Source of the DNA: Lingula anatina
Lineage: Eukaryota; Animalia; Brachiopoda
Direction of reading: 5' to 3'
DNA length: 64,000 nucleotides
NCBI GenBank assembly: GCA_051362555.1
Contig: CM120648.1
Location: forward strand, 3,158,587 to 3,222,586
Shown: positions 16,385 through 63,734 of the stretch, in pieces
How positions within the stretch are numbered: position 1 is the stretch's first letter
Layout of the letters: each line of letters opens with the position of its first letter
The notes under the pieces: generated by a model
What the model was told of the DNA's origin: nothing
Databases searched by the model: none
What the model saw: the letters and a program-made list of their open reading frames with translations, nothing else
Made by a program: the position numbers and the translations under genes

Positions 16385-23975
<7,591 letters not shown>

Positions 23976-26062
23976 TGATTTAGCTAGCGTAGCTCAGGAT
24001 GGTGCAAGTGTCCGATGCACAATGTTCATATTGCCTACACGCATTATTGTTGGATATCAATAAAGGTGAACGATTATACCAACATCGTTAATGGACAAAA
24101 TCGATCGATAACACTGACGAAACAAAGAAAGCGCACCTGATCACAATAAAAGAAAAAAAATTACCCAGTTATGGCATGGGTTTTTCTTGAATCAGATGCA
24201 TTCTACGATACTAGAGAATATTGACGTTTTCGGTGTATTTTACTTTGCGGTGATTAATGGTGTAATGTGAAGCGTGTAGTGATGACGTTTACGGAAAATA
24301 AAGCTTTATTACGTAACGGATATGCTGATGACGTAAAAGGGAAATAAGTATGAAGAAAACCCCATGGTTGTGTAATTTTTGTTAAATTAAATGATAGCAA
24401 AGTATGAAGGAAAAAGCAATCAGTTTATTTGTACGTAGCATGCAATGATGTTTTATATGGTGTTGGTGAATGTAAGATGTATTTGATCTCTACTTAAGAT
24501 AATAATTTGATCTATGATATACATGATCTACCTATTCATAAATACAATTAATATCAGTCATGAGGTGGAGATCTTTAAGTTTCTTTAAACCACATCTGAA
24601 GAATGGGCTGTCTCTTATCTCAACACCAGATGGAACATTGTCGTGTTTTTATTCTGCATAATCGTGTTTAAATTTCCTTTTTTTAATTCCTCTGTTTGTA
24701 TTGTATTATTGCTCATACAATTAACGTGTTAACTTGGAAGGAATTATTCATCAGTTGCAGTTGACTTATAAATGTATGAATAGCCTATTTAAAGGATTGT
24801 TTAAATCACAGCTATATTTGCACAGTTGGTGGCTGATACGTCGTCACATAATTATAGACTTAAAGGCCTTAGGTCTAGCTTCGAAAGAAGTAAATTCTAC
24901 TACTTCTATAATAATCATTATCAAAAGAAGAACATATATTTATTGCCGTTATTCAACATTTAAATCCGCACAAAATAAACGTCATTTTTATTTTATGAGC
25001 AAGGTATATTATGATTCATTGCCTTGTTTTTTTATTTTGAGTATTTAGTTATTAGTTCATTTTTCCTTTGTTTTTACCTTATTGACACAGCATGAAAACG
25101 CCAATTCCATTCATGCTACATAGTGATGTGCTTTATTTTAGTTGTTTGTAAATTAGTGGACATGGACGGGCAATATCATATCAGCTGTGACGTCACAATT
25201 AATACATGTCTATTCAAAATCTAAGGTCTGACAGTATTAGTAAAGGACCGTTCAAAATGAGTGACGTTGCAATGGCTACTGAGCACCAAGTCTGCAGGTA
25301 CTGTAGCTGAATGCCTTACTGCGACTGTTGAGATAACAAGATCCCGCCTCACTGCGGCAGTTGAAATCCCACAAAATATCTACGTAGTAAATAATGCACT
25401 GTCCACGAGCCCGATATCACGATAGCAGGCCGAGCTCCAGCGAGGCATGCTATCGTGGATATCGGGCGAGGGGGTAACAGTGCATTATTTGTCATACATA
25501 CAAAGGGAAATCGTGCGTGTTCCCCACCCAAAACCCCTAACTTTGAATAGAACACGCTGATATCACCGCGCATGGGGTGATATCAAAAAATGGACTTTCC
25601 CCGCGTTTACTGCCTAATTGCGGTCACCGTCCAATCATCTTCGTTTGCGTTAGTGGTTTTCTGAGTAGTTGGCCGATTTCCTGCCCATCTTCCGCACGTG
25701 GCAGTCACTCCGTCTCATTCATTGTATCGGTCCCTGCAATCCTTTTGTTTTGATATCAGCCCCGTGGTATGTATTGGGAAATAATGTACATAATTAGTGT
25801 ATTTATTTTCTGTATCACCAAACAACTCATTCCCTACAAACTGCAGTCAAAAAGAATTTCCAAGTGAACACGGAACCGTTGGTTTGCAGGTATTTTTTAT
25901 TAATAGAAACTAAGTGGAACTCTGTTCATTTTGACCAAGAGGAACAAAACTATAACCAAATGTGAAGATATCCATCTATTTATTTCAATAATATATAAAA
26001 CGATGCGAAAGAGTAATAATTTCTCTAAATTCTTGCCGTCACAACTGTCTACACATCGTGTC

Positions 26063-27980
26063 TTAACCCACGAGGGGTCCTGTTCCCTGAGAGGAGCACT
26101 GAGTGGCAGAGCAGGGGTACGTTGGTCTGTCCGTTGTCGTGCGAACAGGACAGGAGACGCACACCGTTTTTTTATAGCTGATCCCCAACCAGCTCTTGAA
26201 CCTGGTATTGACCTCCCATGTTGCGCTGACCTCCCCGTCCCCAAGCGGTATCCCCTGCTTGAAGCCACAAGCACACTTACTGCCTTTCAAAGCGCTAGAG
26301 GTAGCCACCTTCTTCGTCATGACGCACGTATGAGCAGACCAGTCATCGAATATGTCATCGGGGCACGTGACGTCATATGTTACCCCAGCAAAGTCTATTT
26401 CAAATTGGGCCTCTTTTTCCCAAAAGTATATCGGGAACTGCATGTTACGGCAACTGCACTCGGAAAAGATGTTAATTGGGCGGACCGTAGATCGGGCAGG
26501 GGCAGGGGAAAACGTGTGGGAACTTGAGGGAAGAATTGGGCCTGGTGTCCCCTTCGTCACCCCGGGCACTTCAGTGGGCGATGTTGGAACCGAGATTTTG
26601 CCAGGTTTTGTCACGCCAGTGACGTCAGGAACAAAGGCGTTTCTACCATAATATGCAATAGTTTGTCGACAATTACCGGCAGATGGCGACTGCTGTGGTG
26701 GTTGGCTGGACGTACCATAAACGGCTAGTTTCAGGTCATACAATATGCCTATAACAAATGACATGAGATACATTAAATTCCAGGCCTTTAGCACTAAATT
26801 TAATTTTAATTATATCCCACTAAATAAAAAACGAACTTAACGCCTAACGGGTTCATACTTCTTCTTCAGCCTTCACAAAAAAAAAAAAAAAAAAAAAAAC
26901 TAGCATATTAGTTTTATATTCAATAAGACTTAAGCTTTGAATTAAGTCTCTTGGTCGTTGGCTGCCTTATATTACAAGTATTCCGTCCTTTACATATATG
27001 ACCTGGACATGGATCGCATACCTGAATGACCTTGACCTGGATACAAGCTGTCCACGTGCACCTTCCAGGCGCCTTGTGACCGCTCTCCCCAAAACTGGAC
27101 AGTTGAGACGTTTAGCTCAAGGTAGCGAGACCATTGGTCATTTGGTCGTCCTGGTATCAATATGGACCGCGTTCCCGAAGGAGATTCCAGGTCCACTTTG
27201 ACGTAGCCTCTCTTGGTGAACCTGACCAGCACGTAAACCTGCACGTGTTCTACGTAACTGACGTCACAATCGGCTGGGATTTCCATACCCAGGACATCGG
27301 GGACAGTGCTACACCGGTTAAGAATCAGATATGTGGATGTTCAGGAATGCGAATAATACATTTTAATTTAATTTGGGAAGTACAGTATAGCAATGAAAAC
27401 CGTTCACAGATACGGAAGAACAGAAGTAAGAAACCGGTTGCACCTGTATATACTGTAGTGATTTACATGTTGTACGTGAGTGCTTATGAATAATAGTCTT
27501 TTTTTCATTAAATCACAGAAAAGGAAGAATTGACCACCATGCACCGTCTTAAAATCTGCGCCAATTGTGTTTCCTTTGAAAGGGAATCATAGGACCAAAG
27601 ATCGTTGTTTTGATTTGGACTATCCAACTTACGTGTTGATGTTTCGTTTACTGAGGATACACATCGTCAAAGACGGTACATGTTTCCAGTTCTCGGCGAA
27701 CTTTACCATCTTTTCTGCGTCCAGTAAGCCAAACCCGAATGCACTGCTTACTGTAAGATAAAATGTTTGTTAACACATTAACTCAGTGGTCAGCGGCGGG
27801 CCGGGAGAGGGACACAGCAGGACCCGGTTTCGCGAAAAAAATTAGTCTGGTTCCCTGGCTTAACTTAATTACATGTGCCAACGTTACATGGTCGAATGCG
27901 CACATCTTAACTTATCAGGAACAGTGTTACTGCCCTCTCGTGGAAATCCTAGTCAACTACTGTCTAGGGTAGGGAATTAA

Positions 27981-28014
<34 letters not shown>

Positions 28015-30206
28015 CAGCAAGCCGTGCGCCCCCAAACTTAGTTTCGGAGGAATCCCCTTCTGCCCAGGACAAATTCTGAACTAAACGAAACAAGTCCAAA
28101 CCAAGTCATTTAGCATCCATGTTTCATAAACGGTACAGTATAAATATAATTAGTTGTTATCGTTATAATAAAGCGAGTGCATAATGAAGCGAGGCGATGT
28201 TTTACCCTTGCCCCCTTCCCACGAGATCCAGGATCATCCATTAGTGGCATATCTAATTTTAGCACTCCTTTAACAATTGCAAACTTCATATGGTGTCATT
28301 ATTTAATAATTCAAATATTTTAATCCGAATCATTACAATTTAATAAACTTGAAAAAATTTGAAAATAAAATAAGAAAGGGGGGGGGGGGGGGGGACCCAG
28401 TGGACCTAACCACGTGTGCAAGTATAATATTGGTCAGTTCACCGTACCTTTAACTCCAGCGCCATTCGTATTCCACAAGTCCTCCTGACCAAACTGGTTA
28501 TTGGCCGTGGTCACTATCAGGTGCTGGACATCACGAGCGGTCAGTGAGGGACTGGTTGAAGAATGATATCCTTCCGTTAATGTGATGATTGACTTAACTT
28601 TACTTAAAATGTCTTAAAATCAATGGGCAAGTACTAAATAGAATTAATGGCATACACACACAAGTAAGTGCCACTGGCTGAAACATAACGATCATTTAGT
28701 GAGTTTATCTATCGCCCAAGTGGATTATAGTTAACTTACTTAGCTTCCAAAGCCAAGGCAAGGATGCCCGCGGCAAGTGGTGCCGCAGCAGACGACTCTC
28801 CGAAGTCATCCAGACAAGAACTTGAGTACCCCGTACCTGGAGCGATCTGGAAATATATAGACTCCATGCTAAGAATATGATACCTGTACATGTAAATATC
28901 ATACTCACAACAACCATTCGATGAAAATGCATACAATGAAAATATTTAGGAAAATACGTGCGTAGGTTATGTCAACAATACGAAGTGTGTGTGTGCGTTT
29001 GTGTGTGTGCGTTTGTGTGGGTGTGTGCGCATTTTTTCTACAATACAATTTTTTTACAATAATATAAATATAACATTTAAATACAATTTTCTCCCAAGTC
29101 CAGTCATCGGTAGAATCTCGCGAGAACGCGGTCGCCATCATGGCCCCACACTGTTCCCCATTTGTCAACTTTTCTCCGCGTGACGTCAGTCCACTGACTG
29201 GGATGGTGTAGATGCTGTTGGCAAACCCGTCATATGCGCAGCTGTCTTTGCCGCCGGACCCGCCATTACCGGAAGCGAACACATAGACTGAACCCTTTCC
29301 GTTGCGTCCCTGAAAAGAAAATAGAGAAGTAAAATGATGCAAAAGTATGCTCGTGAATGTCAGCACTATGCCACATTATCACAACTGACACAAGGATTTA
29401 TTTTCACCGCCAGCGCAATGTCACATGATCACAGCCAGCGCAATGTCACATGATCACAGCTAACGCAATGCGCAATGCACAATGAGCCATTGGGGTGGTA
29501 ATAACTCTAAGTTTATCTGTTGTTTAAAACTTTCTAGTTGTTTTGAAGGAATAACAGGGCGTTTAAGATCATTTTCACAACGTACACGAACCCTGCTATC
29601 ATATAACAACATTCTACCTTGATCGCGCCATCTCTTAAGGCCGCCGCAGCCATCGGTCCTATCTCCTTAAGATCGAATCCCGTTCTGGCCATACCCCAGC
29701 TGCAGCTGTAGATGCTGACATCGTTCCCGAAGGCACCCAGAGCTCTAGCCTCCATGAGGTCTGTCGTGGGGGAGTCTCCGTACAGGCGGATGCCAACTAT
29801 TCTGGCATCAGGAGCCACGCCCACTCCACAGACAATGTTAGCAGCGGCGGCAATTATACCTGCAGCGCTGGTGCCGTGACTGAATGAAAAGTGCGGGTTG
29901 ATTTGATTTAAAGACCGTGTTTGCATTTATGATAGGACAGCCATTCTTATTTACTATAAAAGGTTGTCTGATCTGTGTTGGATAGTTATTTTTATATACG
30001 TCATGATAATCTGACCAAGCTGAGTTAAGAAATGTTAACCCGTCTCAATAATTGCTCAACAATATTTATTATAAGCATCCCTGTAAGAAATAGACAATTG
30101 TGATATCTTACCTGTCACCAAAATTGGGATCGGAAATACCTTATTGGTCTTTCTGGAGGTCAAGGCTCAGGCTCAAATCCTAGAAATAACGAAAGGTAAA
30201 CAAATA

Positions 30207-30260
<54 letters not shown>

Positions 30261-30591
30261 GTGTGTTGCGAGTGTGTTTATGCCATCCGTTCTGCGCTCC
30301 TGTATGCATAGCTGCGTAAATTGCGTGTTAATAAGAAAATTTTCTCTGCCAGATTCAGTCAATGCTGATTTGACAAGAAGGTGCTGTTCAAATGTATATT
30401 TATGCGTTACAACTCACTATTTTGTCGCTCAGGTCTCTGTGAGTCGAAAGCACGCCATCGTCGACGACAGCCACTGTCACGTTCTTCCCTGTTCTGCACA
30501 GTGACCATGCCTTAGCTATGTTTGTGTCAAGCGTCTTGCCGCTGTCCTGCGAGACAATAAAGCGATACCGTATTATATATATATTCAATGC

Positions 30592-30644
<53 letters not shown>

Positions 30645-31489
30645 GATACCGTTAAAGGAAACCACTCAAATTCAAAATTGGTATCTAAGTTCCTAACCAG
30701 TTTGAGTACTTTTATCTATGAGATATCTCTAGAAACCCTCTCATTAAGTTGCCGTCAGTCACAAACACCAACTATTTATGAATTTTTGTAGAACATTATA
30801 ACAAAATAAATATTTATCAAAGTTTAATGTCCAAACAATGTATATCTACGTATCAATAAAAATACCCTTAAGACACCAGTCCGAGCTCAATAATAATGAT
30901 AATAAAATAATAACAATAGACAGAGAGATAGCCATGTATTTTGACAAGTGTACAATACAGTAAGGACGTTCAATTCCACTCCTACCATATACCACCGTTG
31001 GTTGTCCCATCTTGGGTCTGCTATGTTGAACGTGCCGGAGGCTGACCTGGCAAACAGTGCCCTTGATTCAGTTCCCTGTCCCTTCACGAGGCTGAGAAGA
31101 TCGAAACACAAAATGTATCCTGTTTTGCTACATTGTACGTACGTGTATCGAGGTAGTGTTAATTGTGATTAAAGGTGCATGACTACCTTTCATGTACAAA
31201 TGCTTGGTTTTTTTCTACTCATTTTTTTTTCATTTGCGTTTGGCTGAGAATAATTTCAAGCGACCTGAAACGGTTACGCACTCTTTATCAGAACACGTGC
31301 TACTTTTAACTATTAATCTGTGGTTAGGTCATTCTAAAAATAAAGCAGGGATTAAACATTTTTTCCAAAACAATGTTCTCCTCAAATGCCAAATTGACCC
31401 AGCGATTCAAAATCATACCTTAGTCCTAGGACACAAAACACCATTATAGTAAAGTTGACCACACCGTTTGCCATTGTTCGCTGTTCCAT
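26063..31489 (-). CDS. PC-A: divergent kexin/furin-family (S8B) proprotein-convertase-like gene with signal peptide, S8 catalytic domain, P domain and Cys-rich tail. It has no prodomain and one in-frame TAA (possible null allele, young pseudogene or sequence error).
   Basis: Exons (-): 31489-31419, 31091-30986, 30546-30418, 30179-30112, 29879-29618, 29309-29085, 28846-28740, 28551-28448, 27750-27633, 27308-27022, 26748-26063 (2163 nt, phases consistent). Motifs VAVVDDG, HGTSAAG, CGVGVA, ASGNGG, ESSAAAPLAAG, RDVQHL, FGFGLLDA, VEHVQV, SPSGTRS, FWGE..QGAW. TAA at 30143-30141. Confidence 0.88.
30211..30256. repeat. (CT)n microsatellite
   Basis: Pure CT run in a PC-A intron. Confidence 0.9.
30594..30640. 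repeat. (AT)n microsatellite
   Basis: Pure AT run in a PC-A intron. Confidence 0.9.
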
Positions 31490-32516
31490 GTTTCAACCGT
31501 GAGATACGATAGATCTCTTCCATCTGGCGCATATGACCGCTGCTAATATAGAAGTCGGTTACATGAATTGGAAGCGTAGGTGTGAATTGATCATATTGCA
31601 TTTGTTTCTCTATGCAGAACATGCATGTTCATTAGTGCACTCAAATGATGGATCCTGGGTGGGTGGGGGGGATGATGACTGACCACGTACCCCTCATAGC
31701 TTTGAAGATAACCCCTATTCTCATCTATCCCTCTCTTTAAACCAGTAAATAAGCGACATGAGTTAAAGCCAATCAATTCAATGGAAAAATGTCCTCGTGT
31801 ACTTATTTAAATATATATAAGAGAGCGAAGCGAGATACTCCTTTTTTATTTTACGCTCCCTCCTCCACTCCTTGTTTTAGGTATATCCTGGATCATTTGG
31901 TGTAACGGGTGAAAAGTTGCTTCTGGGCGTTTGTTGCTTGTTCCGGTTGCTTACAGTCTGTTCAATATATACAGTGATAGAAAGTAAAATGTGTGTTGTA
32001 AAGTAGGTAAAATACAAAAGGGGTACCCTTTGTAACAATTCACTGTTGGTTTAGAGAAGATGCCTGTATGTATGTGTATGACAGTAAAATGAAATTTCGT
32101 AAGACCATAGGAAAATTGATGCAGAAAGGGACTTTTCTAAAAATGAACCAAAAAATGTCAGTTGAGAAAGGAGGGAAGGGACGAACCCCCCCCCCCCCCC
32201 TGTTTAAGGAATTAACAGCCCTGATATGCCACCAGCACCTTTGAAGTCACGATTAACGCTTAATACCACGAACTAATATTTTTTATGGACATATTGCACA
32301 ATTATAATTGAAGCCACTTCTTCGGTAGATCCTGGATCAACAAGGACACGAGGATCACGACAGTGCGAACTAGTGCTGGAGATATAAAGACGTGGGTGTC
32401 GATACAGCTCAATCTGTCCTCCCGTTTGCCAACAGATAAGGAAGCCACAGAGCTTACACGGTAGCAAACAGGTAACTTGTGTGGATCTCAGCAACGAAGA
32501 AAGAGTCAGAGAGAAG
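31490..32516. promoter_or_regulatory. Candidate bidirectional promoter between PC-A and PC-B
   Basis: About 1 kb separates the divergent start codons. TATAAA lies at ~32384-32389, about 130 bp before the PC-B ATG. Confidence 0.45.
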
Positions 32517-35500
32517 ATGGTGTGGTTCTTCGCACTATGGTCGTTGTGCTTTATTATTACTGCCGAATGCAGGTAAGCCGAGGGATTAAATTTATTCTTA
32601 CACCAACGACCGATGTTATACTGTAGTTTCAATGATTTTTTTTCTGTTTCTTTTTTTTTTTTTTTTTTTGTGGGCATTTCGCAAAAGATTTTTCACAATA
32701 TTTGATGTATAGTTCTGGAACGACAGTTATTTAGGAGAAAAAGATGCGTTTTTAGGTACACCCAAATTCGAATCTCTTAATATTTTAGAGTTATTTAAAT
32801 TTTATTGTTATCTATATTTTGTCTTAGTTGTGGCGGAGTCCTGCGTTGTAGGAGGCTTCCAAAGTATATGAATCTTTTAGGCATGAAAACGTGTTGACTA
32901 GGTCTTCCAATAACCAACAACAGGATACTTTGTTACTCTTATTAAATTTTGCCTTGTGGAATTTGGGTTTGTAAACGTATCGATAAAAAACATAAAAATA
33001 AAACCAAAACTGTTTTTAACGGATATAGGAAACTGCCGGGCGGTATATGTTCCTGTTCCACGGCCCAGTTAAAAAAAAAAAAGGTATCCTGCTTTCAATA
33101 CTGTTTCGAAGAACATATGAGCAAAGTTGGTGAGAATTGCTCATTCAGTTATGTCAACAACATAAATTGTGAGCCAGCCATTCGTAAAAAGTTTCGTTAC
33201 CAGCATCGCAAATTAAAGTTGACTTCGCATAGTCGGCTATCTGATTTTAGACATCTCAGCCAAGTCTTAGTCCTTGTGTGAAGTCTGCTACAACAGATTT
33301 TCCCTTGACTTTGACATGCATGAAAGATAATACCTGTAGAGCTGTAATTTGCCTCATTTTCTTACAGATATCCATACTACAGGCCTTCTTACACCAACCA
33401 ATGGGCTGTAAAAATTCTTGGAGGCAATGAGGGGGCTAGGCGCCTCGCCATCAAATATGGGTTTGACTACGAGGATAAGGTTAGTAATTATAATTACAGT
33501 ATGGGGCAGAAATTGTTGAGTATTTATTTCATCAGAAAGAAAGTACAATATTATAGACCTAAAGTAATTTGGTAGGGGATTCTCGCTAAATTGCCCTCCG
33601 TTTAAGTAGCTTACATATCTGGCACGCCTAATGAAGCTGCTAATAGTTAATTACCCCCTAACAGCTTCAGTAGGCGTGTCAGACAAAAAAAATCCCCTCC
33701 GCTAGATCGAACAAGGTATGGGAATGAGGTCTTAGTGATGTAGATTCAAGGAACATTAAAATAAGAGCAATCCTCGGCCAGAATGGGCTCAGAACTGTAA
33801 TTGGGTCAAAAAAACCCTGTAATTAAGTTGCATAATAATGGGTCTTATGGTCATTTTTCGGTCCCCAAAGCTTTTAACCTGAACCCACCCATGCAGTGTA
33901 AATTTAAAATCAAGTGAATATTACTGAAGGATTTCAAGTTATGATTCAGTTCAATTCAATTCAATTCAAACTAAGCCATCTTATACCATGCGATCTATCT
34001 ATCTAAGTATCAGTGGGCGGCCGGAGGGATAAGTTACACTGTTTATGGTGACCTGATCGTAACCAGGTCACTTGTGAAGATGGGGTATATGTACCCTCTG
34101 CCAGGGTGGCAGATATTATAGAGAAAAATGGGGGGAAAAAACAAATAACCGTCAATTTATTTAAAGACATATCTGTGATTATCTTGTGAAAAATCAATCT
34201 GTCGCCCTGGTAGAGGGTAAGGCATATGTGCCGTGTTCAGTCGAACCAACTTCAGTAACAACACATCTTAAGTCTCACAACCAAAGAAACTATGCCATAT
34301 CATCCTTTAAGCTGCTTACTTGATTATGTTGATTACGGAGTCATGACATTTAGTTTACTAACCACGATGTGTCAGATAAGAAAGGGCTGTAGTATGTAAG
34401 ACGAGAGCTTAAGACAAGGTTAGACGATCGGATAGGAGTTTATATATTACAAGAAATGCCCAATTCATAAGCAGAAAGGGCGCCATTTTGAAGAGAGCAC
34501 CTTACCTAGGTTAAAAAAAACTGGCAACATTTTCAAGATTTTTTTTGTCCGTAGGTATTACTTTCAGACTAATGTGATAATATGGTCTAAAGTTTCAGCT
34601 CTGATCAATAGCAGTCTCCTTCCCGTTATAAAATGCAGACAAAAGAGTTCCTAAACTCTCACCTCATTACATTTGTTGAAAAATTCACAATTTTGCCTTT
34701 GGAAACTCGATCGCCTCCTTTTCCTTTTCCATATATCAAAGTAATACTGTAGGGCAAAATACTCGTATATCAACCAATCCGAATAGTTCCAGATCCTCCT
34801 CAGTGTTCCTAATCTACCAAGGCTGCATTTGATATTTGGAACGATCCCATCTCTAAAAAAAAACGCCGTATTATTACAGATGTGTATTTCTTGATATTCA
34901 TGCCCAGACAGGAGCGGATCCAGAAATATTTGAAGGGGGTGTTATTTAGGCATGGGAGTGCTTGCGGGTATGAAACCTACTTTTTAATTGTTACCTATGA
35001 AGTGGAATATAATATATTATATCTATAGATATTCGAGGACATCTATTCGTTCACATCATGTTCAAACTCCATCACCAGAAAGACGCTACCGTCCATCGTA
35101 AACTGAGTGAAGAAGACAGCATAAGTAATTAAGAAGTCTGAGACGTTTTTCCTGAATCATATATGCATTCAAAGAGTGAAGTTCAATATAACAATATATA
35201 ATCAAACACAACTAAATTATGTCACTTCTGTTTTCTAGTGTATTCAATCTATCATTCCCGTTCACTAGCCAGGTATGTGCCTTCGTCATTTTTCAATTAT
35301 TCCCAGCGAAGGTACCACATACCATGTATGCCACAAGTGACTTTGCCTTTAGGCACGTATGCAGTAAACAAAGCCAATACATGTTTCACTTTTGCAGTGG
35401 ACGCAACAGCAGACAGCAGTCAAAAGACAACTAGCGAAATATGGAAATCTCAACGTGAACGACCCATCTTGGTACTACCAGCAGTGGTACATGGTAAGTT

Positions 35501-35741
35501 TGACCTTTGACCTTCAAGGTTGACCTTGGGGAGTGTGTCAAGCGGTTCTGGGTTTGACAGATAAACTTTTTGGCAGGTCACACGTAGAAGAGTGTGAAGC
35601 ATATGCGTGCGTATGTGCGTACATACAGTGTACGTAGGGATTTCAGATTCACGTATACACGTACGATGCATTCAGATACCAGTAACAGCGCTTTGTGTTT
35701 TCAGTATTGCTCGATACTGCGAGTACCACACGGTCCACTTA

Positions 35742-35783
<42 letters not shown>

Positions 35784-38700
35784 GATGATGATGATGATGA
35801 TGATGATGACGATGATGATTTCAGGGCAGTGGGAGGAATCTAGACAGTAAGATCACACAAGCTTGGTGTATGGGGAAAACTGGACAGAACGTTCTTGTGG
35901 CGGTGGTAGACGACGGCGTGTGGTCTAGGCACAGAGATCTCAAAGACGCAGTGGTGAGTATCGTGCCACCCTTCCTGGGCTATTCACTGTCCCTAAATTC
36001 CCAGACATAAAATTTTCATGGCAAATCTGACTGTGTACTTAGTATGTATTTGAACCATAACTTTCATCAGTTGGTTAAGTACATGTAGTCTATTTGCTGC
36101 AGAACAGAGGGCAATCTTCTTGCCTACGATGGATATACAGTTGTAATACGAAAAAGTTTTGTACGGCCAACTTAACAATAACCATTTAAAGAAAAGCAAA
36201 AAAAAAGTCAATACATTATTTAAGGTTACAAGCCTTGACTCATATCAAACGCAATGCTGCAATTACAGAATTCGATTTTTTTAAGAATCTAGATAAGAGT
36301 TACGACTACCAAAGAAACTGGGCTGGATCATCCGATCCCGGGAACCTGTGGAGCGACAAGTGAGTGACATGTACAGTCGGGTGAATAAGTAACTTTCCGA
36401 TATTATCCGGATAGGCCTACAGTATTTTAATCCCCATGTATCTGTGATGTTACAACTAAATTCCATGTCATTTTAAACCGTCAAAACATCTAAGCGGATT
36501 CAGCATTCAGCCCTTCCCAAATGAAGAAAAAACACACTCTAGCTGTGAGTGTAAAAGATATTGCTTTGTTTTGTCACTGGGGGGGGGGGGGGGGGGGGGG
36601 GTCAGTGCAGACTTCATATTTTGTTAATTTCTTATTATCTAATAGAAAATATTATTAAGTTGTATAGAATGTAGTTAATTTGGTTAATTTGGTATTTTAT
36701 ATATACCAATCTTGTTTCAGTCATGGTACCAGCGCTGCAGGCATCATAGCCGCTGCACCTAACGGAGTATGCGGGGTGGGCGTGGCACCCGGGGCTAAAA
36801 TAGCAGGTAGGAGACTGCTGGGGTGTATGAATCGGCTGGCCCAGCTTTGGTTACATTCAAGCATAACTTAGGTTGGTCCAGCGTTGATTATAATGCATAG
36901 TATTCCTAGGGTGGCACAGTGTTAATTGATACAGCATTACCTTAAGGCCCTAGGTTGGCATACCGTAGGTTACCCAGCGTTGCCCACAGTTGGCTACAGC
37001 GTGCCATACAGTGCGTTGACCCAAAAATTGACCCAATGCTTGCTAGGGTGTCATATGGTATTTGACTGAACATCCAACTTAGGGGCCACAATGAGGGTAT
37101 GAAAGAGAATAAAGTCCAAAAATGTTGAACAAATTTTCTTAATCTTTGACGAACTTTCAATTTTCTGCTACAGGTATACGTCTCTATGGAGACAACCCTA
37201 CCACTGATCTCATGGAGGCAAACGCTCTGACGTCATCCATGTATGACGTCAGCATTTACAGCTGTAGCTGGGGGTCTGCAAGGACCGGGTTTGACTTAAA
37301 ACCTCTTGGAGCACGTGCAGCTGAGGCCCTGCAGAGGGGGGCCACACAGGTACAGGATGGCCCCCAGTAGGGGTTGAAAACTTAATTGTTATTCGTCTAA
37401 AAGAAGAATTCCTGAAAAGCTACTTATCTTTTCCAATTCAGACCTTAAAAAGGAAGGTACATCCCGTAAACGTTAACGATTGTGAATCCCTTAAACGATC
37501 CAGCTTTTCCCAATGGCGTAGATGACAAATTCCAAAAGCATCTCCTTTTAGGGTCGAGGAGGCAGGGGGTCCATATACGTGTTCGCTTCGGGCAATGGCG
37601 GCTCGAACGGGGACAGTTGCGCTTATGACGGGTTTGCCAACAGCATCTACACCATTCCGATCAGCGGAGTGACAGCGGACGGAGAAATGATGTCCAGCGG
37701 AGAGCAGTGCGGGGCAATAATGGCGACAACGTTCACGAGGGATTCCAGTAAAGACTGGACACCGAATAGAATCGTAAGATCATGCTCTAACAATAAGCTG
37801 TTATGCTGGATACCTTTAGTGTGATATTTTGACACAGATAATATTAAGCTTTTGACAAACGGGTTTCAGGAGAGGTTTTACTGAGTTTGAAATTAAAATC
37901 ATAAGACTTCACAATACTATAAGGTGAAACATACCCCAGAAACTAAGGTAAAATGTGAACAAAAATTCAGATTTGTAAAAAAAAAAAAAAACGGAAGTGA
38001 ATAAAAGATAAATTAAGAAAAAATAGATTAGCATGAATGCTCACTGCACTGAATCTACCGGATATTGGTATAATAACTGAAATATTTTCCTCGAAAAATT
38101 TCCAGATTACACCAGGAACCACAGGCAGATCATCTTGCACCAGCGATTTTGGGGAGACCTCGGCGGCAGCGCCCCTGGCGGCTGGTATAATTGCCTTGGC
38201 GCTGGAGGCGAAGTAAGCACAGTATGAATAAGCACAATGATTTTTTTTACGATAGAGGGTTTTAAATCATTTCAGCTACATGTTATCAGAAATGACGCGA
38301 GTTATTACTGTTATTGCTATTGATTTGTAAATCTTCATTAATTATCTTATTTGATTTTAACATAACAATGAGAAAAAAGATGCTTTACCTTCATAAAGTA
38401 AATAGATAAATATGTGTTTTAAGTTTTAAAAATGTAACATATAATAGGCCTACTAATTCATTCTTCTTTTCTGTTTCAACAGCCCTCGTCTTAGTGCCCG
38501 TGACGTGCAACATCTGATCGCAGAAACTGCCAACAACAACTTTGGTAGAGGCAATCTCTGGTCCTGGAACGCGGCAGGGAAAAAAGGTGACGTCATAACT
38601 GTACACGCTCCTTAAGCCCCCCCCCCTCCCCTTTACACTGGACGACGTTCTTTCTGCGTCCCGAAGTACGGCCCCGTTTGAGAGTTTAAAAAAAAGTTGT

Positions 38701-40249
38701 TATTATTTTTTCCATCCTATAATTTCTGATTGTTTGTATGTGTTTTTCTAGTGAGTCGTGCTTTCGGTTTCGGTTTGCTGGACGCCGAGAAGATGGTGCG
38801 CTACGCTGAGAAATGGCGATCAGTACCAGCCTTAAAGTCCTGCGAGGTAACTCTGCGCAATATTAACAGGTACAAAAGTAACAAATATATAGAGATAATA
38901 TTTATAATTCCATTCTTGGGATCTTTCTTTTGCTGTAATATTTGCAAAATATGTTGTTTGGCATGGTCTGTATGGTTTGCCACAATATTAACAGTGCGAA
39001 TGCTCCAGTAAAAGAAGGCCTAATTACACGTATAACCTCATTCTCCTAATCTTTACTGTAATGTTGGCAAGATTGTAAGTTTGGTATTGTGCAGCGTAAA
39101 TTATTATATTATATTATATTATATTATATTATATTATATTATATTATATTATATTATATTAAACAGAACCATTCCTGGAACCGTGTCCCTAGATCTTCCA
39201 AGCTGGAAATGCGCTGTCAATCACGTGGAGCACGTGCAGCTGTACGTGTTGACGAAATTCACCAAGCGCGGCTTTGTCAAGGTCAACCTGCGTTCCCCGT
39301 CCCGCACGGAGTCCGTCATGATCCCCGGTAGACCCAATGACCAGTGGTCAGCGTATCTGGAGCTGACAGTGTCCAGCGTCCAGTTCTGGGGAGAGCAGGG
39401 CCGAGGCACGTGGCAGGTGGTCATCGATAGCCTGTACCCTAACCAAGGCCATTCTGGTAAGGTGGACAAATTTTGAGAAGATGGTTGAGGTGGCGACGTT
39501 AAATTTTCTTGTTTGGATATACATGTACAAGCATTTTGTGATATTGATAGTAAGCTGCATGCCCAAGCCAAACAAAAATTCAATCAGTATTTTTTTTACT
39601 TATAGTTAGGATCCCCTTACCCCCTTTTAATATCTTAAACGTTGCCTACAAGGCCCTTTTCCAATAAAGTTCATCAGACAATTTTAAGGCTTTTTTCTCA
39701 GAAATATTTACATACATTCCTATGATATCCTCGTTTGTAGGTACCGTGTACGACGTGAAGCTGGTAGTTTACGGAACCCAACAGTCCCCGCCAAGTCAGA
39801 CGCCATCTTCTGTCAACAGCGGGTGCGCCAACCAGCAGCAAGTGACGCTACCACCAGTCACCAAAGCCACTGTAAAACCCACTCAACCCCCTGTCACCCA
39901 ACGGCCAGTGACATCCCCATCCTGCTCGTGCAAGACACTGACCAACCCTTACTGGGGGTCGAATCTCAAAGTTCAGCTCCAGCAGGGTAGCGAGATCTAC
40001 GAAATCCAATGCCCGCAGAACATCGTGAGTTCGGATATGTCGATTGACTGCCAGATGAAGAAGAAAACGTACACAGTTCAGGGCAGCAGCTGCGGATGCG
40101 ACTTTAGCCGGTGGAGTTACAATGGGGCTTCGTGGTGGGTCACCGTTGGCGGAGAGAAGTTCCTCATTTCCTGCACGATAAGCTCACCCTGGACAATGGT
40201 CAGTTACCCCTGTCGGGGAATCAGGAACAGTTCGCCGTTGATTGGTTGA
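32517..40249 (+). CDS. PC-B: divergent kexin/furin-family (S8B) proprotein-convertase-like gene with signal peptide, prodomain (exon 3 disrupted or shortened), S8 domain, P domain and Cys-rich tail; no transmembrane segment
   Basis: Exons (+): 32517-32572 (MVWFFALWSLCFIITAEC), 33368-33479 (YTNQWAVKILGG..KYGF), 35029-35097 (end uncertain), 35398-35493, 35825-35953 (VVDDG), 36286-36359, 36721-36806 (HGTSAAG), 37174-37349, 37552-37773 (ASGNGG), 38106-38212 (ETSAAAPLAAG), 38483-38586, 38752-38869, 39167-39456 (P domain), 39741-40249. About 715 aa if the 35097 donor is used. Confidence 0.9.
35743..35819. repeat. Compound (TAT)n(GAT)n microsatellite abutting a PC-B splice acceptor
   Basis: The run ends about 5 nt before exon 35825. 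Confidence 0.9.
39101..39160. repeat. (ATATT)n pentamer microsatellite abutting a PC-B splice acceptor
   Basis: The run ends 6 nt before exon 39167. Confidence 0.9.
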
Positions 40250-43813: not shown

Positions 43814-46800
43814 ATGTACAGACACAGATGTGTCTGTACATATAGCCATCACCTGCGTCTGTCGTCGCCGTCGCCGTCGTCGCCGTGCACTTTTACCGAT
43901 AACACGATAAGTGGAAAACCGTTTTTTCTTTTGGTTTGAAACTTACAGAATTGATGAATATTCATAATACGCAGGTCAAGTTCGAAAATCAGCATGATCG
44001 GGCCATTTTTAGGGTAATTATGCTGTTTTTTCACTTTTTTCAGCATATATGCAGCACCGATAACACGATAAGTGGAAAACCATTTTACCTTTTGGCTTGA
44101 AACTTACAGAACTGATGAATATTCATAATACGCAGGTCAAGTTCGAAAATCAGCATGATCGGGCCATTTTTAGGGAAGTTATGCTGTTTTTTCACTTTTT
44201 TCAGCATATATGCAGCACTGATAACATGATAAGTGGAAAACCATTTTACCTTTTGGCTTGAAACTTACAGAACTGATAAATATTCATAATACGCAGATCA
44301 AGTTCGAAAATCAGCATGATCGGGCCATTTTTAGGGAATTTATGCTGTTTTTTCACTTTTTTCAGCATATATGCAGCACCGATAACACGATAGATGGAAA
44401 ACCATATTACTTTTTGGCTTGAAACTTATGAAACTGATGAATATTCATAATACGCAGGTCAAGTTCGAAAATCAGCATGATCGGGCCATTTTTAGGGAAG
44501 TTATGCTGTTTTTTCACTTGTTGATATTTCCCTGTAAACTCCCAAAGGTTAAGCTCTCTGCTAGATAACATAGTGTCCATAATAAGGAAGCAGTGAATAG
44601 CAGCTTCATTGGAATTATATTTTTGTTGTTTTCTTTTTAATTTTTTCTCCAACACTGGCATTTTTAAGATGTGATTTTTAACGTCTATCCACCTGAGGCT
44701 CTGCACATTTTCAGTATTTCCACATAAGCAGTTGTATTGGTATTTATGTCTTTAAACACGCTGTAATATTATTTTATGCACTGTCATCATTTTTATGTAC
44801 AGACACAGATGTGTCTGTACATATTGCCATCACCTGCGTCTGTCGTCGCCGTCGCCGTCGCCGTCGCCGATCATGTCGCCGTGCACTTTCAGCGTTAACA
44901 CCATAAGTGGAAGACAGTTTTACTTTTTGGTTTTATATTTACAGAGCTGATGAATATTCATAAAACGCAGGTTAAGTTCGAAAATCAGCATGATCGGGCC
45001 ATTATTGTAGAATTTATGCTGTTTTTTCACTTTTCAGCATATATGCAACACTGTTAACACATTTCAAGGAAAACTGATAGGCCTGTTGTCATGAAACTCA
45101 CAGGAGTAATCAATCTTACTAAAACGCAGATCAAGTTCGAAAATCGGCTTGATGGGGCCACTATTTTAGTAGTTATGCTGTTTTTTCACTTTTCAGCATA
45201 TTTGCAACACTGTTAACACATTTCAAGGAAAACCCATAGGCCTGTTGTCATGAAACTCACAGGAGTAATCAATCTTACTAAAGCGCAGGTCAAGTTCGAA
45301 AATCAGCATAATCGGACCATTATTTTATAAGTTATGCTGTTTTTTCACATTTCCTCAGATTCAATTCTTAGGCATGTTAACAGTCTCATTATTTAATTAA
45401 TAAGATACGTAAAAGTGTTTGTTTGACATTTCCTGCATCTTTACAACATTGTTAGTTGATTTTGTAAAAATGATGGTAAACTTGTTATCGTGTATTGTGT
45501 AATAAGGTATCAAAAATGGAAATAAACTCATATCATTGCAGTTTGTAAGATTCAATCATTCACTATGTTCAGAAACTCAGAATGGAGGAAATTGGACATT
45601 TGACACTGTTCTATTGATATTTTTCACATCTCATCAATTTTCTTAGTTGATCATATAAAAATGGCAGTAAACTGTTAATTTTGTTTTATGTTAAAAAAGT
45701 GTTAAAAATGGAAATAAACCCATTTCAGAACAGTGCTGTCTTGTTTACATTTTGGCATTTTCAAGGTGTGACTTTGAAGTTCCATGGGCCTGAAGACCTT
45801 TGCTAGTCACATTTTCTGAATATCCATAATACTAATATTTTATCATTAAAAATTGATGGTCATTATGCTGTTAAACGTTATGTAATATTGCATCAAAATT
45901 TGGAAAAAAAATATTTTGGGCACTGCTCCCATGATGACCATTTAAGAAAAATCATGTCACTTACTGTTCTCAAACTTACAGGAAAGAAACACGGGACTAA
46001 AATACAGCTTCAGTAGGCAATGCAGTGTGTTTGGTAATTCTTTCTGCTAGTTAAACAGTTTTTTTTTTTTTTTTGTGAAAATTTAATTTTTCACATATTG
46101 GCATTTTCAAGGTGTGACTTTGAAGTTCCATGGGCTTGAAGACCCATGCTAGTCACATTTTCTGAAAATCCATGATATGTATATTTTATTATTAAAAATT
46201 GACGGTCATTATGCTGTTAACCATTATGTAATAATGCATCAGAATAGAAGAAAACACAATTTTGGGTGCTGCTGCCATGATGACCATTATGGGAAAACCA
46301 TGTTACTGATGATTGCCAAACGTTCAAAAAAGAAATACAGGACTAAAATGCAGCCTGAGTTGGAAAAGCAGTCTGATTGGCTTCTTTTTCTGGAAGTTAT
46401 TCATTTTCAAAGTGTGAACTTGAACTGCCATGGGCCTGAAGCCTTATGCTTGTTACACATTTTACTTACATTGGTATTACCTGTTGAGCATAATTAAAAT
46501 TTGATGTTGAATTTGCAGTTTAACATAATGTACTTTTGCATCAGAATTGACAGTAGCCTATTTTGTGCATAGTTATTTCCTGCTTTTTGTCTGTACATTT
46601 GACAGCTTTGCTGCCTTGTTCATATATTGGGACTTTCATCATGTGAATTTTAACTCTCATGGTCCTGAAACTGTAATCTTATTGAAGGGGTGGATTGAGA
46701 CCATTTTCTGGGTCTCCTGGAAGACAGTCAGATTTTAAAGTTTATATTTACGGGTTTCTGTTGGAAGACCATCAAAATGGAGGATGGATCAACAAAGATA

Positions 46801-51590: not shown

Positions 51591-53044
51591 TGAAAGGCAC
51601 TTTTTTTAATGGGCCCCAGGTGTAATAATTTCCCATTAACTTAGAACAGTGCACTGTAAATGGTTTAAATATAGTTTTACATTTGCAGTGTGATATGTAA
51701 CATTTGTCAGTTAATGGGCTATAATGGTCTGAGCTGAGGTGTATCATACACATACTTAAATATTTCTGTGGGCTATTTAAAGACAATCACAGATGTATCT
51801 TGTGGTTGTTACATCTCTTATCTGTAGAAGATACAGTGTGATAGCTTGAAAACAGCTGTGCACTATTACATGTTATACACCAGTTAGCTTTAGAAGTTTT
51901 TTTCTAAGCCAAATCATTCCTTTTCTTCAGTTTCTTTTCCAAATGGTTTAAATTTGACCAAATAAGTCAAACCAACTCTATTTTGTTTAGCCAATTTAAG
52001 TCATTTTTAAATAAATAGCATTTGGCTAAATTAGTAAGTGTTAGTGCTGTCCCAGATAAATGTTGTATAATATTATATATCACAGAAGACTAATGGCTTG
52101 CACAGACTTCTGGGCAATGATGTTGTACATTTGTATAGTTACCAATATATGAAGTATGTGTTTTAGTCTATTAGACCTCCTCTTTGTGACTGAATTATTA
52201 ATTTACCTTAAAGTTTGTTACACTTAAATAGAATAAAATGTCATTGGCTGAAACCAGGTCCATTTTCACAATGACTAAAATATATGACATATATAAACAG
52301 CAAAACTTTCCTTTGTTTAAATCTAAACCAAATTATTATAGGAATAAATAAAGAGAGAATTGAACTGGGATATAACTTAAAAATGACATGCTAAAAACAA
52401 TTTGACTTCACAATTGTTAAAAAAAGGAGGATTAGGATTGAAGACCATGCTTGTAATCTATTATATAGGAGAGACAGTAATAAATAGTTGTCAGAACCAC
52501 AGTCATTAAGATCATATTATATACTGCTTGTATTCCATATTTTGGATGAAGAAAAAGGTTGAATTTGACATTGGATAAAAGAAGTGTCAAAAATTATTTT
52601 TGTGCCACATGTTATGTCTTTTGTTGGATACATAGCTCTTACCAGCTTGTTTTATGTACTAGTAATGGAACAATTTATACAATTCGCCGTTTTTGTTCAG
52701 ATTTGCTATATTGACAAACAAAAACCTTATCAATTTCTTTTAATTTCAAGTACTTGATTGCTCTGTAATAAAATAGAAAGACTCAAGTTTTCATGCTAAT
52801 AACTGATGTCAATTCTGATGTCAATTTATATGTAAAATCAGAGCAATATGAACAAAACTCAATTGTTCATTTTTTCCAAAACTAGTCATGAAAAGATAAA
52901 CCTTGATTTATGCAAAAATAAATTATATTTAGAAAAAAAGAAAAGAACTCCCTGCAATGTTTTTGTTGACAATTAGTATGTATATCAATTTTGACTTTTG
53001 TTTTATCTTCTGTAGGCTGTTGGAGTAGCTAAAATCCTTGCAGC

Positions 53045-62000: not shown

Positions 62001-63734
62001 AAAGGCCAGTCTTACTATGGAGCATACAAACAGTATGAGAAATGGGAGAAGTTCATCAATCACATCAAGACATTAGTTCTTCCCAAAGACTCTCCACTGA
62101 AAAACATGTATCAGACGTCCGAATTCTGGACCAAGGTGAGCCCATTTTACTGATTTAAAAATATGTTCTATTTTTAAGGAAATTGTAAAGTTTCTTTCAT
62201 GACATAATTAAGCCCAATCAAACCAGTTACATATTTCATTCAGTCTAATTATAATGTATTTTGACTAGAATGATTTGTCAAGTTTATCATTTCAACAAGA
62301 AGGGCAAATGTTTTGCCTTGTAATAGAGATATAACTTTTGTGCACTCTCTCTTTTAATACAAATCCCCCTCTCTTTTAATGCAATTTCCAAAGAGAGCTC
62401 TTAAGTGTTGAAAGTCACACGAACTTTTGGCTTTAGGTATTCATGGAGCGTGTTGCAGTTGGGAGCGCCATCTATGGTCTGGTTCTGTCCATGTTGATAT
62501 GTATTGCTGCGGTGGCCGTTTTCACGGGACATGTTCTGTTGCTTCTCATCATTTGTCTTACGATATCTGGTAAGCTGGTAATTGTTTTTAAATTAGTGAT
62601 TTTCTTTTTGTGAGAATTCAGATTAAATGAAAAAAAAATAATAAAGGCAGTTCATTTGTTATCCTGAAGAAAATTATATTGATTAGTGTGATTCATTAAA
62701 CGAACCACTGTACTATGTCTTATAGACTCTTTTAGAGGGAATTGAGGCATCTAATTATATGCACCTCTTAGGAGGGGGTGAGGAAGTGAAAAAAACGGAA
62801 GTTAAGATGAGAGCACATACCCTCTGTGCCTCCCCCTTCCCTCCTCTCCCCCTGCCCCAGACCTACCACTTAAGACTTCTGAAAATACATTTTTGTTTCT
62901 GTTCCAGGTGTTATTCTCCTTGTGGTCTCTGTGTTTTACCTGTCTGGGTGGGAGCTGGGGGCAGTGGAGGCAGTCTCTCTGTCCATCCTGGTGGGCTCCT
63001 CAGTGGACTACTGTGTCCATTTGGTGGAAGGATATCTGCTGGCTGGTATCCACCCACCACACAATATAAGAGAGGTATGCATATATTTATGGTTGGATTT
63101 TTCCCATGTGTAAGTTATTTTGATGGGTTATGTGTGTATATGTTTAATAGAGAATGGACTTTGGTAGAAGGCTAGATTCGTCTATGTTACCAAGAGGAAT
63201 TCAAAACTTTTAAATCAGTAGAATTTTTTGTTCCATTCCCTAAACACTTCAGAGTGTCTTGATTGATTTTTACATGCCATTACATACTTGTTCAATTAGT
63301 GTTTCATTCTTGATGCTTCACTCTGAAATATGTTGTGACAGGGCATTATTGTCATATTACAGAATACCAAAAGTCTGCGACAGTGGCGAGCCAAGGTAGC
63401 AGTCAGCCATATTGGATCCTCCATCTTCAGCAGTGCCGTCACCACAATCGTGGCGGCCATCCCGCTCACCCAAACCACCATACAACCCTTTGCCAAATTT
63501 GGAGAAATTGTAGCCATTAACACCTCCGTGGCCATACTGTACACGTTTACTGCATGCACAGGGTTTTTGAGCTTATTCGGACCAGCCAAGTTCAAGAGGA
63601 ATGCGAAATCATCTCTCCTGTCCTTTGTTTGTACTGGCATTTCTATTGGCGCCATTGTCCTGGTGGCTTATTTGGTGGATAGGTTTGGTGGCGTCACCAT
63701 CCCTGGGCCAAGTGGAAAGTCCCTGTTTACTTAA
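53045..63734 (+). CDS. DISP3: Dispatched homolog 3 / PTCHD2-like RND-family, sterol-sensing-domain multi-pass membrane protein, ~1385 aa, 16 coding exons
   Basis: Exons 53045-54350, 54646-54742, 54984-55255, 55563-55723, 56067-56209, 56759-56898, 57120-57326, 57908-58080, 58381-58687 (or 58708), 60595-60797, 60980-61169, 61460-61602, 61992-62135, 62437-62569, 62908-63074, 63363-63734, with consistent phases. Motifs GILNGAASFLIIGIGCDDVFVF, ATFFTSFTTAAAFAAN, WELGAVEAVSLSILVGSSVDYCVHLVEGY and FAKFGEIVAINT resemble recalled DISP3. Confidence 0.88.
55225..55440 (+). repeat. Exon-end-derived ~33-bp tandem repeat running into the intron
   Basis: GGTGCTGCCA[G/C]CTTTCTT-like unit occurs in the exon and about 6 times in the following intron. 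Confidence 0.7.
58901..59006. repeat. 33-bp minisatellite, ~3 copies, in a DISP3 intron
   Basis: Unit GGCATGCACCTAGTTACTGAACTGGCAAAATCT. Confidence 0.85.
59388..59712. repeat. Diverged ~41-bp minisatellite in a DISP3 intron
   Basis: CATGTACCTAG-like cores at 59391, 59432, 59473, 59514, 59555, 59611, 59660 and 59701. Confidence 0.8.

What the first reader, a model, noticed from the sequence alone, without database searches (positions are those of the whole stretch)
26063..40249. Head-to-head pair of rewired proprotein convertases, a candidate new secreted PC subfamily
Seen: two divergently transcribed paralogues with near-identical exon sizes (129, 262 vs 86+176, 107, 104, 118 nt). Each has a signal peptide, S8 domain, P domain and Cys-rich tail, and no TM anchor. 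Their sequences differ considerably, yet they share the same non-canonical residues at the active site and specificity pocket. Known: kexin/furin/PC1/PC2 enzymes cleave after paired basic residues using an acidic pocket and activate at R-x-K-R. Inference: the shared changes were kept by selection and define a lineage-specific PC with non-basic specificity or a binding role. This is loosely reminiscent of PCSK9 (non-basic autocleavage, repeated Cys-rich C-terminal modules) but built on a P-domain-containing kexin scaffold.
Basis: partly seen in the sequence, partly recalled or inferred. Interest (0 to 1): 0.85.

Follow-up and report, generated by a model that had tools for sequence, protein, structure and literature searches.

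The report
Rewired furin-like proteases missing their prodomain
Two back-to-back furin-like protease genes of a lamp shell (brachiopod) keep their catalytic residues but have a reshaped binding pocket that likely cuts after bulky hydrophobic rather than basic residues; both have lost all or half of the prodomain that furin needs to fold, and one carries a premature stop codon in this copy.

Summary
The head-to-head pair is real and both genes are spliced in RNA. Gene B matches a named Lingula anatina protein at 589 of 605 residues. Gene A has an in-frame TAA before the catalytic His. A has no prodomain. B skips the middle third of its prodomain. Both keep Asp/His/Asn/Ser but share D258R, D264K and G366E (furin numbering); D258R occurs only in Lingula among 279 domains. 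Intact Lingula paralogues end their prodomain in RSLF, CELF or RELM. They nest in a wider invertebrate group (corals, amphioxus, nemerteans, molluscs) where loss of the acidic S1 pocket goes with a non-basic prodomain end (19 of 21, versus 0 of 7). Divergence is synonymous-dominated, so both genes were conserved until recently. Best reading: secreted kexin-scaffold proteases that likely cut after Leu-Phe/Tyr and fold without their own prodomain, with A a recent null allele here. Activity is untested; a pseudoprotease role remains possible. The 8-Cys tail module has no match found. New variant of a known kind; interest 0.6.

The parts
26063..31489 (-). Gene A: 11 exons (31489-31419, 31091-30986, 30546-30418, 30179-30112, 29879-29618, 29309-29085, 28846-28740, 28551-28448, 27750-27633, 27308-27022, 26748-26063); signal peptide, no prodomain, S8, P domain, Pro/Thr linker, one 8-Cys module; 720 codons with one internal stop
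   Evidence: RNA joints 27750/28448, 29879/30112, 30545/30985, 26744/27018 and 31078/31419 (2 reads)
30141..30143 (-). In-frame TAA in gene A exon 4 (codon 115), upstream of the catalytic His; the only acceptor after it within the exon shifts the frame; next Met at 167
   Evidence: whether RNA reads carry it was not among the 40 of 289 differences shown
30986..31091 (-). Gene A exon 2: signal peptide joined straight to a short stretch holding RALF and the start of the catalytic domain; no prodomain
   Evidence: joint 31078/31419
31490..32516 (.). 1,027-bp spacer between the two start codons (shared upstream region; promoter function not tested)
32517..40249 (+). Gene B: 13 exons (32517-32572, 33368-33479, 35398-35493, 35825-35953, 36286-36359, 36721-36806, 37174-37349, 37552-37773, 38106-38212, 38483-38586, 38752-38869, 39167-39456, 39741-40249); open 692-aa frame
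   Evidence: RNA joints up to 37347/37550 (reads were laid only to 37900); RefSeq proteins P0001 and P0009 give the same joins
33368..33479 (+). Gene B exon 2: first third of the S8 prodomain
   Evidence: Pfam PF16470 positions 1-28 of 79; own profile positions 1-30 of 80
35029..35124 (+). Likely relic of the middle prodomain exon of B: begins after an AG like the paralogue exon, runs into a stop, skipped in RNA
   Evidence: weak tblastn hit to P0011 at the expected residue (E 0.30); stop in that frame; joint 33477/35397 in 11 reads of X6 and zero X7 depth in bin 34654-35060; RefSeq P0009 skips it
35398..35493 (+). Gene B exon 3: last prodomain strand, junction RQLA at the P4-P1 positions (reads of run X7 lack two codons here, giving RQLY), start of catalytic domain
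   Evidence: table 4 (83 of 84 reads)
37174..37349 (+). Gene B exon with the rewired S1/S4 loop (P256S, E257A, D258R, D259T, D264K); counterpart in A lies in exon 29879-29618
38106..38212 (+). Gene B exon with the nucleophile motif FGETS (H364F, T365G, G366E, Ser368 kept); counterpart FGESS in A exon 28846-28740
39914..40246 (+). Gene B 8-Cys tail module, predicted all-beta with 8 strands; counterpart in A at about 26455-26108
   Evidence: no match

Best explanation
These two genes are an old inverted duplication within a Lingula expansion of furin-like (kexin-scaffold) proteases; they keep the catalytic residues, are likely secreted, likely cut after Leu-Phe/Tyr-type hydrophobic sites instead of paired basic ones, and have lost their own folding prodomain, with gene A likely a recent null allele in this copy. 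Shown: gene structure, splicing, residue changes, prodomain loss, the stop, synonymous-dominated divergence. Inferred: Arg at 258 removes the acid that binds a P1 Arg and may pair with the kept Asp306, leaving a shallower neutral pocket; Glu at 366 alters the primed side rather than catalysis; intact paralogues would self-activate after RSLF/CELF; A and B would fold either unaided or with a prodomain supplied in trans by an intact paralogue; the 8-Cys module would tether the enzyme to an extracellular target.
For: D153, D154, H194, S253, N295, T/S367, S368, D301, D306, E331 kept in both. D258R in 6 of 279 domains, all Lingula. Furin P1 contacts include Pro256, Glu257, Asp258, Asp306; P4 contacts Glu236, Asp264; Gly366 is listed under P1'/P2' (PMC2820236, passages). 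The equivalent Gly is not named in the catalytic-core passages read (PMC11593635) and borders the S2' region (PMC7921005). Non-Gly at 366 in 29 of 258 domains with intact D/H/N/S. Inside the divergent group 19 of 21 proteins with an altered S1 have a non-basic prodomain end and 7 of 7 with an acidic S1 have a basic one (Fisher p 3e-5). Uncut AF2 model of paralogue P0010 puts R112-L114 in a strand followed by a low-confidence linker at 118-127. Prodomain-catalytic complex of P0010: score 0.90, best of 3 controls 0.00, contacts agree 96% or more, pLDDT 91 or more (mark reached by 51 of 78 solved and 2 of 108 mismatched pairs; 39 of 65 and 2 of 126 for eukaryotes); its interface holds D165, H203, S382, R267 (258) and E380 (366). 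pS 0.75, pN 0.22 over 455 codons; 26 A-specific against 45 B-specific changes. Read differences are synonymous in 12 of 22 A codons (p 0.004) and 8 of 9 B codons (p 1e-4). Nine coral relatives also lack the prodomain yet keep D/H/N/S. A propeptide-deficient kexin-like protease with an external chaperone is known in Aeromonas (PMC5638518, passages; 3WQB).
Against: No activity data. The furin prodomain is a required folding chaperone (PMC11394684, PMC9296861, passages), and B lacks paralogue residues 68-102, which include much of the predicted interface (65-74, 83). The complex was cut by me at F115 and resembles solved furin-PC1/3 prodomain structures (9FIE, 9FID), so its register is partly imposed and the pass may come from likeness. 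The covariation test is not tree-corrected, and two proteins with a changed 258 keep a basic P1 (P0014, P0136). The A and B junctions themselves are irregular (RALF out of register; RQLA versus RQLY between populations). The wider group could partly be long-branch attraction; PC2, S1P and PCSK9 were not deliberately sampled. Only 40 of 289 read differences were shown. No protein for gene A was found.
Confidence: 0.5

Rival explanations
1. A and B are secreted pseudoproteases or binding proteins: the cleft and the 8-Cys tail bind a partner, and catalysis is lost or limited, as in PCSK9.
For: No complete prodomain; Glu at a position that is Gly in 248 of 279 domains; new Cys-rich tail repeated up to five times in P0002; prodomain-less relatives with a broken triad exist in the same group (P0208, P0178).
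Against: All catalytic residues stay intact across a synonymous-saturated divergence, whereas relatives that stopped cutting lost His or Ser; PCSK9 keeps its prodomain bound and lacks a P domain (PMC9296861); the same pocket changes occur in paralogues with an intact prodomain and a matching non-basic junction.
Confidence: 0.25
2. Both genes are decaying duplicates: prodomain loss crippled them and the stop in A is one step of ongoing pseudogenisation.
For: TAA in A; skipped, degenerate exon in B; two-codon indel at the B junction between populations; low read depth in 3 of 4 runs; no A protein in the databases searched.
Against: One stop and no frameshift in 720 codons of A, none in B; low pN with saturated pS; A has fewer lineage-specific changes than B; synonymous excess among read differences; B well spliced in X6 and X7.
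Confidence: 0.15
3. They are ordinary basic-site convertases with a relaxed pocket, cleaving at K-R (VKR in B, VVKR in P0002).
For: D154, E236, D301, D306 and E331 are kept; a KR pair lies just upstream of the junction.
Against: D258R and D264K put positive charge where P1 and P4 Arg bind; the KR pair aligns to furin P5-P4, not P2-P1; paralogues P0011 and P0180 have no KR there.
Confidence: 0.1

Closest known systems
Furin / kexin-like proprotein convertases (S8B)
   Same: S8 + P domain, Asp/His/Ser triad and oxyanion Asn, fold (paralogue model to furin 5JXG, E 4e-50, TMt 0.91; P0001 to furin chains E about 1e-81), second-calcium-site acids D301 and E331
   Different: D258R, D264K, P256M/S, H364F, G366E; no RxK/RR junction; prodomain absent (A) or internally deleted (B); no anchor; new 8-Cys tail
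Lingula 'multiple furin-like genes', long-branch groups and PCSKX of bioRxiv 10.1101/802215
   Same: That survey notes several furin-like genes in Lingula, long-branch amphioxus duplicates and an invertebrate-only group; our wider group has a similar spread (cnidarians, spiralians, amphioxus)
   Different: In the section and passages read it gives no active-site or junction analysis and drops five incomplete Lingula models; it suggests PCSKX works like furin; its supplementary gene table could not be seen, so identity with PCSKX is open
SKI-1/S1P (MBTPS1)
   Same: Cleaves after non-basic residues (PMC9296861); its R-x-L-x preference (recalled, no call) resembles RSLF, RALF, RQLY, RELM
   Different: Distant scaffold (rank 49, 14% identity); these carry a P domain and a kexin-type core, so any likeness in specificity would be convergent
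PCSK9
   Same: Secreted, hydrophobic P1 self-cleavage, Cys-rich C-terminal region (PMC9296861)
   Different: PCSK9 is proteinase-K-like, lacks the P domain and keeps its prodomain; here the P domain is present and the prodomain is lost
Aeromonas sobria serine protease with external chaperone ORF2
   Same: Kexin-like fold without a propeptide (3WQB, 3HJR; PMC5638518)
   Different: Bacterial; has a dedicated adjacent chaperone gene; none is identified beside the Lingula pair

Membership tests
Kexin-like proprotein convertase (S8B) | Peptidase S8 domain followed by P domain | tested here: met
   Pfam PF00082 and PF01483 on exons of A and B and on P0001
Kexin-like proprotein convertase (S8B) | Asp/His/Ser triad and oxyanion Asn | tested here: met
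   in A the His, Asn and Ser lie after the stop codon
Kexin-like proprotein convertase (S8B) | Complete S8 prodomain | tested here: not met
   A none, B positions 1-30 of 80; met by paralogues P0002/P0010, P0011, P0180
Basic-residue-specific convertases (furin, PC1, PC2, PC4, PC5, PACE4, PC7) | Acidic S1 and S4 pockets (D258, D306, E236, D264) | tested here: not met
   D258R and D264K; D306 and E236 kept
Basic-residue-specific convertases (furin, PC1, PC2, PC4, PC5, PACE4, PC7) | R-x-K/R-R autocleavage site | tested here: not met
   RQLA/RQLY, RALF, RSLF, CELF, RELM
Basic-residue-specific convertases (furin, PC1, PC2, PC4, PC5, PACE4, PC7) | Cleavage after paired basic residues | not testable with these tools
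   needs an enzyme assay
PCSKX (bioRxiv 10.1101/802215) | Nesting with the labelled PCSKX genes in a tree | tested here: inconclusive
   Trees built but no labelled PCSKX sequence was available; supplement not seen; similar taxon spread, though a sea spider protein falls in our group
SKI-1/S1P | S1P-type catalytic domain without a P domain | tested here: not met
   P domain present; fold search ranks furin and kexin far above site-1 protease
PCSK9 | No P domain, proteinase-K-like core, retained prodomain | tested here: not met
PCSK9 | C-terminal Cys/His-rich domain fold | tested here: inconclusive
   Tail model pLDDT 79.8; no clear match, best Z 5.5, rmsd 5.3, 105 aligned
Propeptide-deficient kexin-like protease with external chaperone (ASP/ORF2 type) | Dedicated chaperone gene next to the protease | tested here: inconclusive
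   The prodomain profile hits only B exon 2 in the six frames of the window; a chaperone of unrelated sequence would not be seen

The most novel reading that the evidence does not exclude
An old, uncharacterised invertebrate branch of the kexin family (corals, amphioxus, brachiopods, nemerteans) has switched from basic to hydrophobic (Leu-Phe/Tyr) cleavage by at least two routes (D306N/S, or D258R in Lingula), and has repeatedly shed the prodomain while staying an active protease; the Lingula pair are prodomain-free members that fold alone or borrow a paralogue's prodomain in trans and carry a disulfide-rich beta module with no known match.
Probability: 0.35. Interest if true: 0.8.

Novelty: new variant of a known kind. 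Interest (0 to 1): 0.6.

Why it matters
Animal kexin-type convertases are known as basic-site cutters that need their prodomain to fold. A natural series in which the S1 pocket and the prodomain end change together gives a direct way to test how this scaffold sets specificity, and natural prodomain-free versions with an intact triad would test whether the chaperone requirement is universal. Practically, these genes are annotated as 'furin', 'bli-4' or 'neuroendocrine convertase' and likely do not do that job.

Tried and rejected
No whole genome is held for this window, so the paralogue count comes from public proteins only. The run index listed no RNA holder; runs were added by species label. 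Reads were laid on 25700-37900 only, so the last six joints of B have no read support here (they agree with RefSeq P0001), and the state of the A stop in RNA was not among the rows shown. Candidate uses of the 35029 exon with or without a mini-exon at 35239 were translated and rejected because RNA and RefSeq skip the region. Searches for relatives of the tail module found nothing: Pfam, Atlas, word-based protein search, Foldseek, VIA-align; these blanks do not show a new fold, and neither PCSK9 nor resistin appeared in the listed rows. No prodomain remnant for A was found by tblastn or profile search. Inverted repeats are just the paired exons at 70-76% and simple repeats, so no recent gene conversion is evident. 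dN/dS with correction is unreliable because pS is saturated (only 262 of 500 bootstrap samples computable, range 0.05-0.14). Ten literature searches found no paper describing these residues or this group's junctions; the library lacks most subscription journals. A jellyfish venom proteome lists a 'PC3-like endoprotease' (PMC4848628, passages), but I could not link it to this group. Three look-ups of earlier findings returned nothing.
Full report
Observation. The region holds two kexin-like genes facing away from each other, with start codons at 31489 (gene A, minus) and 32517 (gene B, plus). Introns are GT-AG. B is an open 692-aa frame. It matches the named protein XP_013412170 of Lingula anatina at 589 of 605 residues, so the window is from this brachiopod or a very close relative. 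A and B share 306 of 455 aligned catalytic+P residues. Both have S8 and P domains, a hydrophobic N-terminus, no C-terminal hydrophobic stretch and one 8-Cys tail module.

(1) Gene A has an in-frame TAA at 30143-30141, codon 115, between catalytic Asp88 and His126. It is a substitution, not a homopolymer slip, and the only acceptor after it in that exon shifts the frame. (2) A has no prodomain: its signal exon joins a short RALF stretch and the catalytic domain (2 reads of run X7), and neither a prodomain profile nor tblastn finds a remnant. (3) B keeps only the first 30 of 80 prodomain positions and the last strand. RNA joins 33479 to 35398 (11 reads of X6), as does RefSeq P0009. A likely relic of the skipped exon lies at 35029-35124; the homology is weak (E 0.30) but it starts at the expected residue after an AG.

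Expression. Four RNA runs were laid on 25700-37900 (15 of 26 joints and 40 of 289 differences were shown). Both genes give spliced reads on the expected strands. B joints have 22-106 reads in X7 and 4-20 in X6. A joints have 6-11 reads in X7 and 2-3 in X1. X1 shows A joints and no listed B joint; X6 the reverse. Co-expression therefore looks loose. Tissues are not given. X7 reads lack two codons at the B junction (83 of 84 reads), turning RQLA into RQLY.

Active site. With furin numbering anchored on a lizard furin, both genes keep D153, D154, H194, S253, N295, S368, D301, D306, E331 and E236. Both change P256 (M or S), E257A, D258R, D259T, D264K, Y308F, R197S, C198A, H364F, T365G and G366E. 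In furin, 256-258 and 306 contact P1, 236 and 264 contact P4, and 364-366 contact P1'/P2' (PMC2820236, passages and table). D258R occurs in 6 of 279 aligned domains, all Lingula. Position 366 is not Gly in 31 of 279, and in 29 of 258 with an intact D/H/N/S set, so G366E alone does not mark a dead enzyme.

Family. Public Lingula proteins show at least three more paralogues: P0002/P0010 (full prodomain ending RSLF, four full and one degenerate tail module), P0011 (CELF, C-terminal hydrophobic anchor) and the more distant P0180 (RELM). FastTree on 196 non-redundant domains of the 279 and IQ-TREE on 74 of them (450 columns, SH-aLRT) give A+B 99.6; A, B, P0002, P0011 100; with two nemertean proteins, P0180 and a sea spider protein 95.9; with coral and amphioxus proteins 98.2; with bivalve proteins 99.9 (names). 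The trees were rooted on furin, the sample is the top hits of two searches, and long-branch attraction is a risk.

Specificity. Among 28 members of that group with a prodomain end and intact triad, 7 of 7 with acidic 258 and Asp306 have a basic P1 at the junction, and 19 of 21 with an altered S1 have a non-basic one, mostly x-x-L-Y/F (Fisher p 3e-5, not tree-corrected). Outside the group 82 of 86 are basic. Corals and amphioxus change D306 to N or S; Lingula keeps D306 and changes D258 to R, which suggests a second route to the same switch. Since convertases first cut their own junction (PMC9296861, passages), the junction is the best available guide to specificity. An AF2 model of uncut P0010 (pLDDT 81.2) places R112-L114 in a strand followed by a loose linker. 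A two-chain prediction of its prodomain and catalytic+P domains scored 0.90 against a best control of 0.00 (contacts agree 96% or more, pLDDT 91 or more; mark reached by 51 of 78 solved and 2 of 108 mismatched pairs), with D165, H203, S382, R267 and E380 in the interface. I cut the chain at F115 and similar furin-prodomain structures are solved, so this shows compatibility only. It also shows that the segment B has lost (68-102) carries much of the predicted interface.

Selection. A versus B: pS 0.75 (saturated), pN 0.22 over 455 codons; P domain ratio 0.13. With P0002 as outgroup, A has 26 and B 45 private changes in 446 columns. Among the read differences shown, 12 of 22 A codons and 8 of 9 B codons are synonymous, against about 26% expected (p 0.004 and 1e-4). 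A was therefore conserved long after losing its prodomain, and the stop is likely recent. No A protein was found, which fits a pseudogene annotation or a missing model; I cannot tell which.

Prodomain loss recurs. Nine coral relatives lack a prodomain hit yet keep D/H/N/S, five of them with RVKR or RVRR just before the catalytic domain; two octocoral and one nemertean protein also lack it, two of these three with a broken triad. Some such cases could be truncated models, but several start with a signal-like peptide. The furin prodomain is a folding chaperone (PMC11394684, passage). A bacterial kexin-like protease without a propeptide uses an external chaperone (PMC5638518, passages).

Tail. 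The module has 8 conserved Cys in two similar halves, each with C-x-C, and was found only in Lingula proteins among those fetched. It is predicted as eight beta strands (pLDDT 79.8 from 6 sequences). No family, Atlas, sequence or fold match was found.

Mechanism and odds. Most likely (0.5): secreted proteases of shifted, hydrophobic-P1 specificity that fold without their own prodomain, A being null in this copy. Rivals: pseudoprotease or binder (0.25), decaying duplicates (0.15), ordinary basic cutter (0.1).

Prior knowledge. The one survey found that covers Lingula convertases (bioRxiv 10.1101/802215; section 7 read whole, other passages by search; supplement not seen) notes multiple furin-like genes and long-branch groups and names PCSKX, without residue analysis in what I read. 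Whether our wider group is PCSKX is unresolved. Ten searches found no description of these residues or junctions. Other papers were seen as passages only: PMC11593635, PMC7921005, PMC2662429, PMC4848628. The S1P R-x-L motif, the furin exon sizes and the name Dispatched-like are recalled.

Verdict. Real, and odder than reported in one way (prodomain loss) while weaker in another (A is broken here; the switch is older than Lingula; nothing is assayed). New variant of a known kind, interest 0.6.

Noticed in passing
P0019, P0026, P0029, P0030, P0035, P0040, P0042, P0047, P0088 (coral or coral-like proteins): A group of nine convertase-like proteins with intact triad, D306N/S, no prodomain hit, often RVKR/RVRR before the catalytic domain and TSP1 or ShK tails; an independent prodomain loss.
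   Followed up: partly
window 36689-37900: Run X1 has low-depth reads on the strand opposite to gene B, including intronic sequence near 37779-37849; possible antisense transcript.
   Followed up: no
window 33433-34246: Intron of B covered in all four runs by reads that run on unlike, with strand-switch joints at 33594-33685 and 34165-34171: a dispersed repeat or small mobile element.
   Followed up: no
window 23196-23975 (+): Last exon of a TMEM26-family gene (Pfam E 3e-30), convergent with gene A.
   Followed up: partly
window 53033-63734 (+): Multi-exon membrane-protein gene with weak MMPL and DUF7023 hits; looks Dispatched-like (name recalled).
   Followed up: partly
P0002 and P0011: Both lie on a RefSeq contig of the same length with close accession numbers, likely a second tandem pair of this Lingula family.
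   Followed up: no
P0131, P0132, P0134, P0141, P0142, P0200: Proteins with two to five tandem kexin-like domains, many with broken triads.
   Followed up: no
P0186 (Anabas testudineus): A teleost kexin-like protein that falls outside the furin, PC1 and PC7 groups, in a group (FastTree 0.994) with a nemertean protein; might be a vertebrate survivor of an invertebrate group such as PCSKX.
   Followed up: no
window 43852-44751 and 45748-46497: Near-duplicated non-coding-looking segments seen as repeated translations.
   Followed up: no
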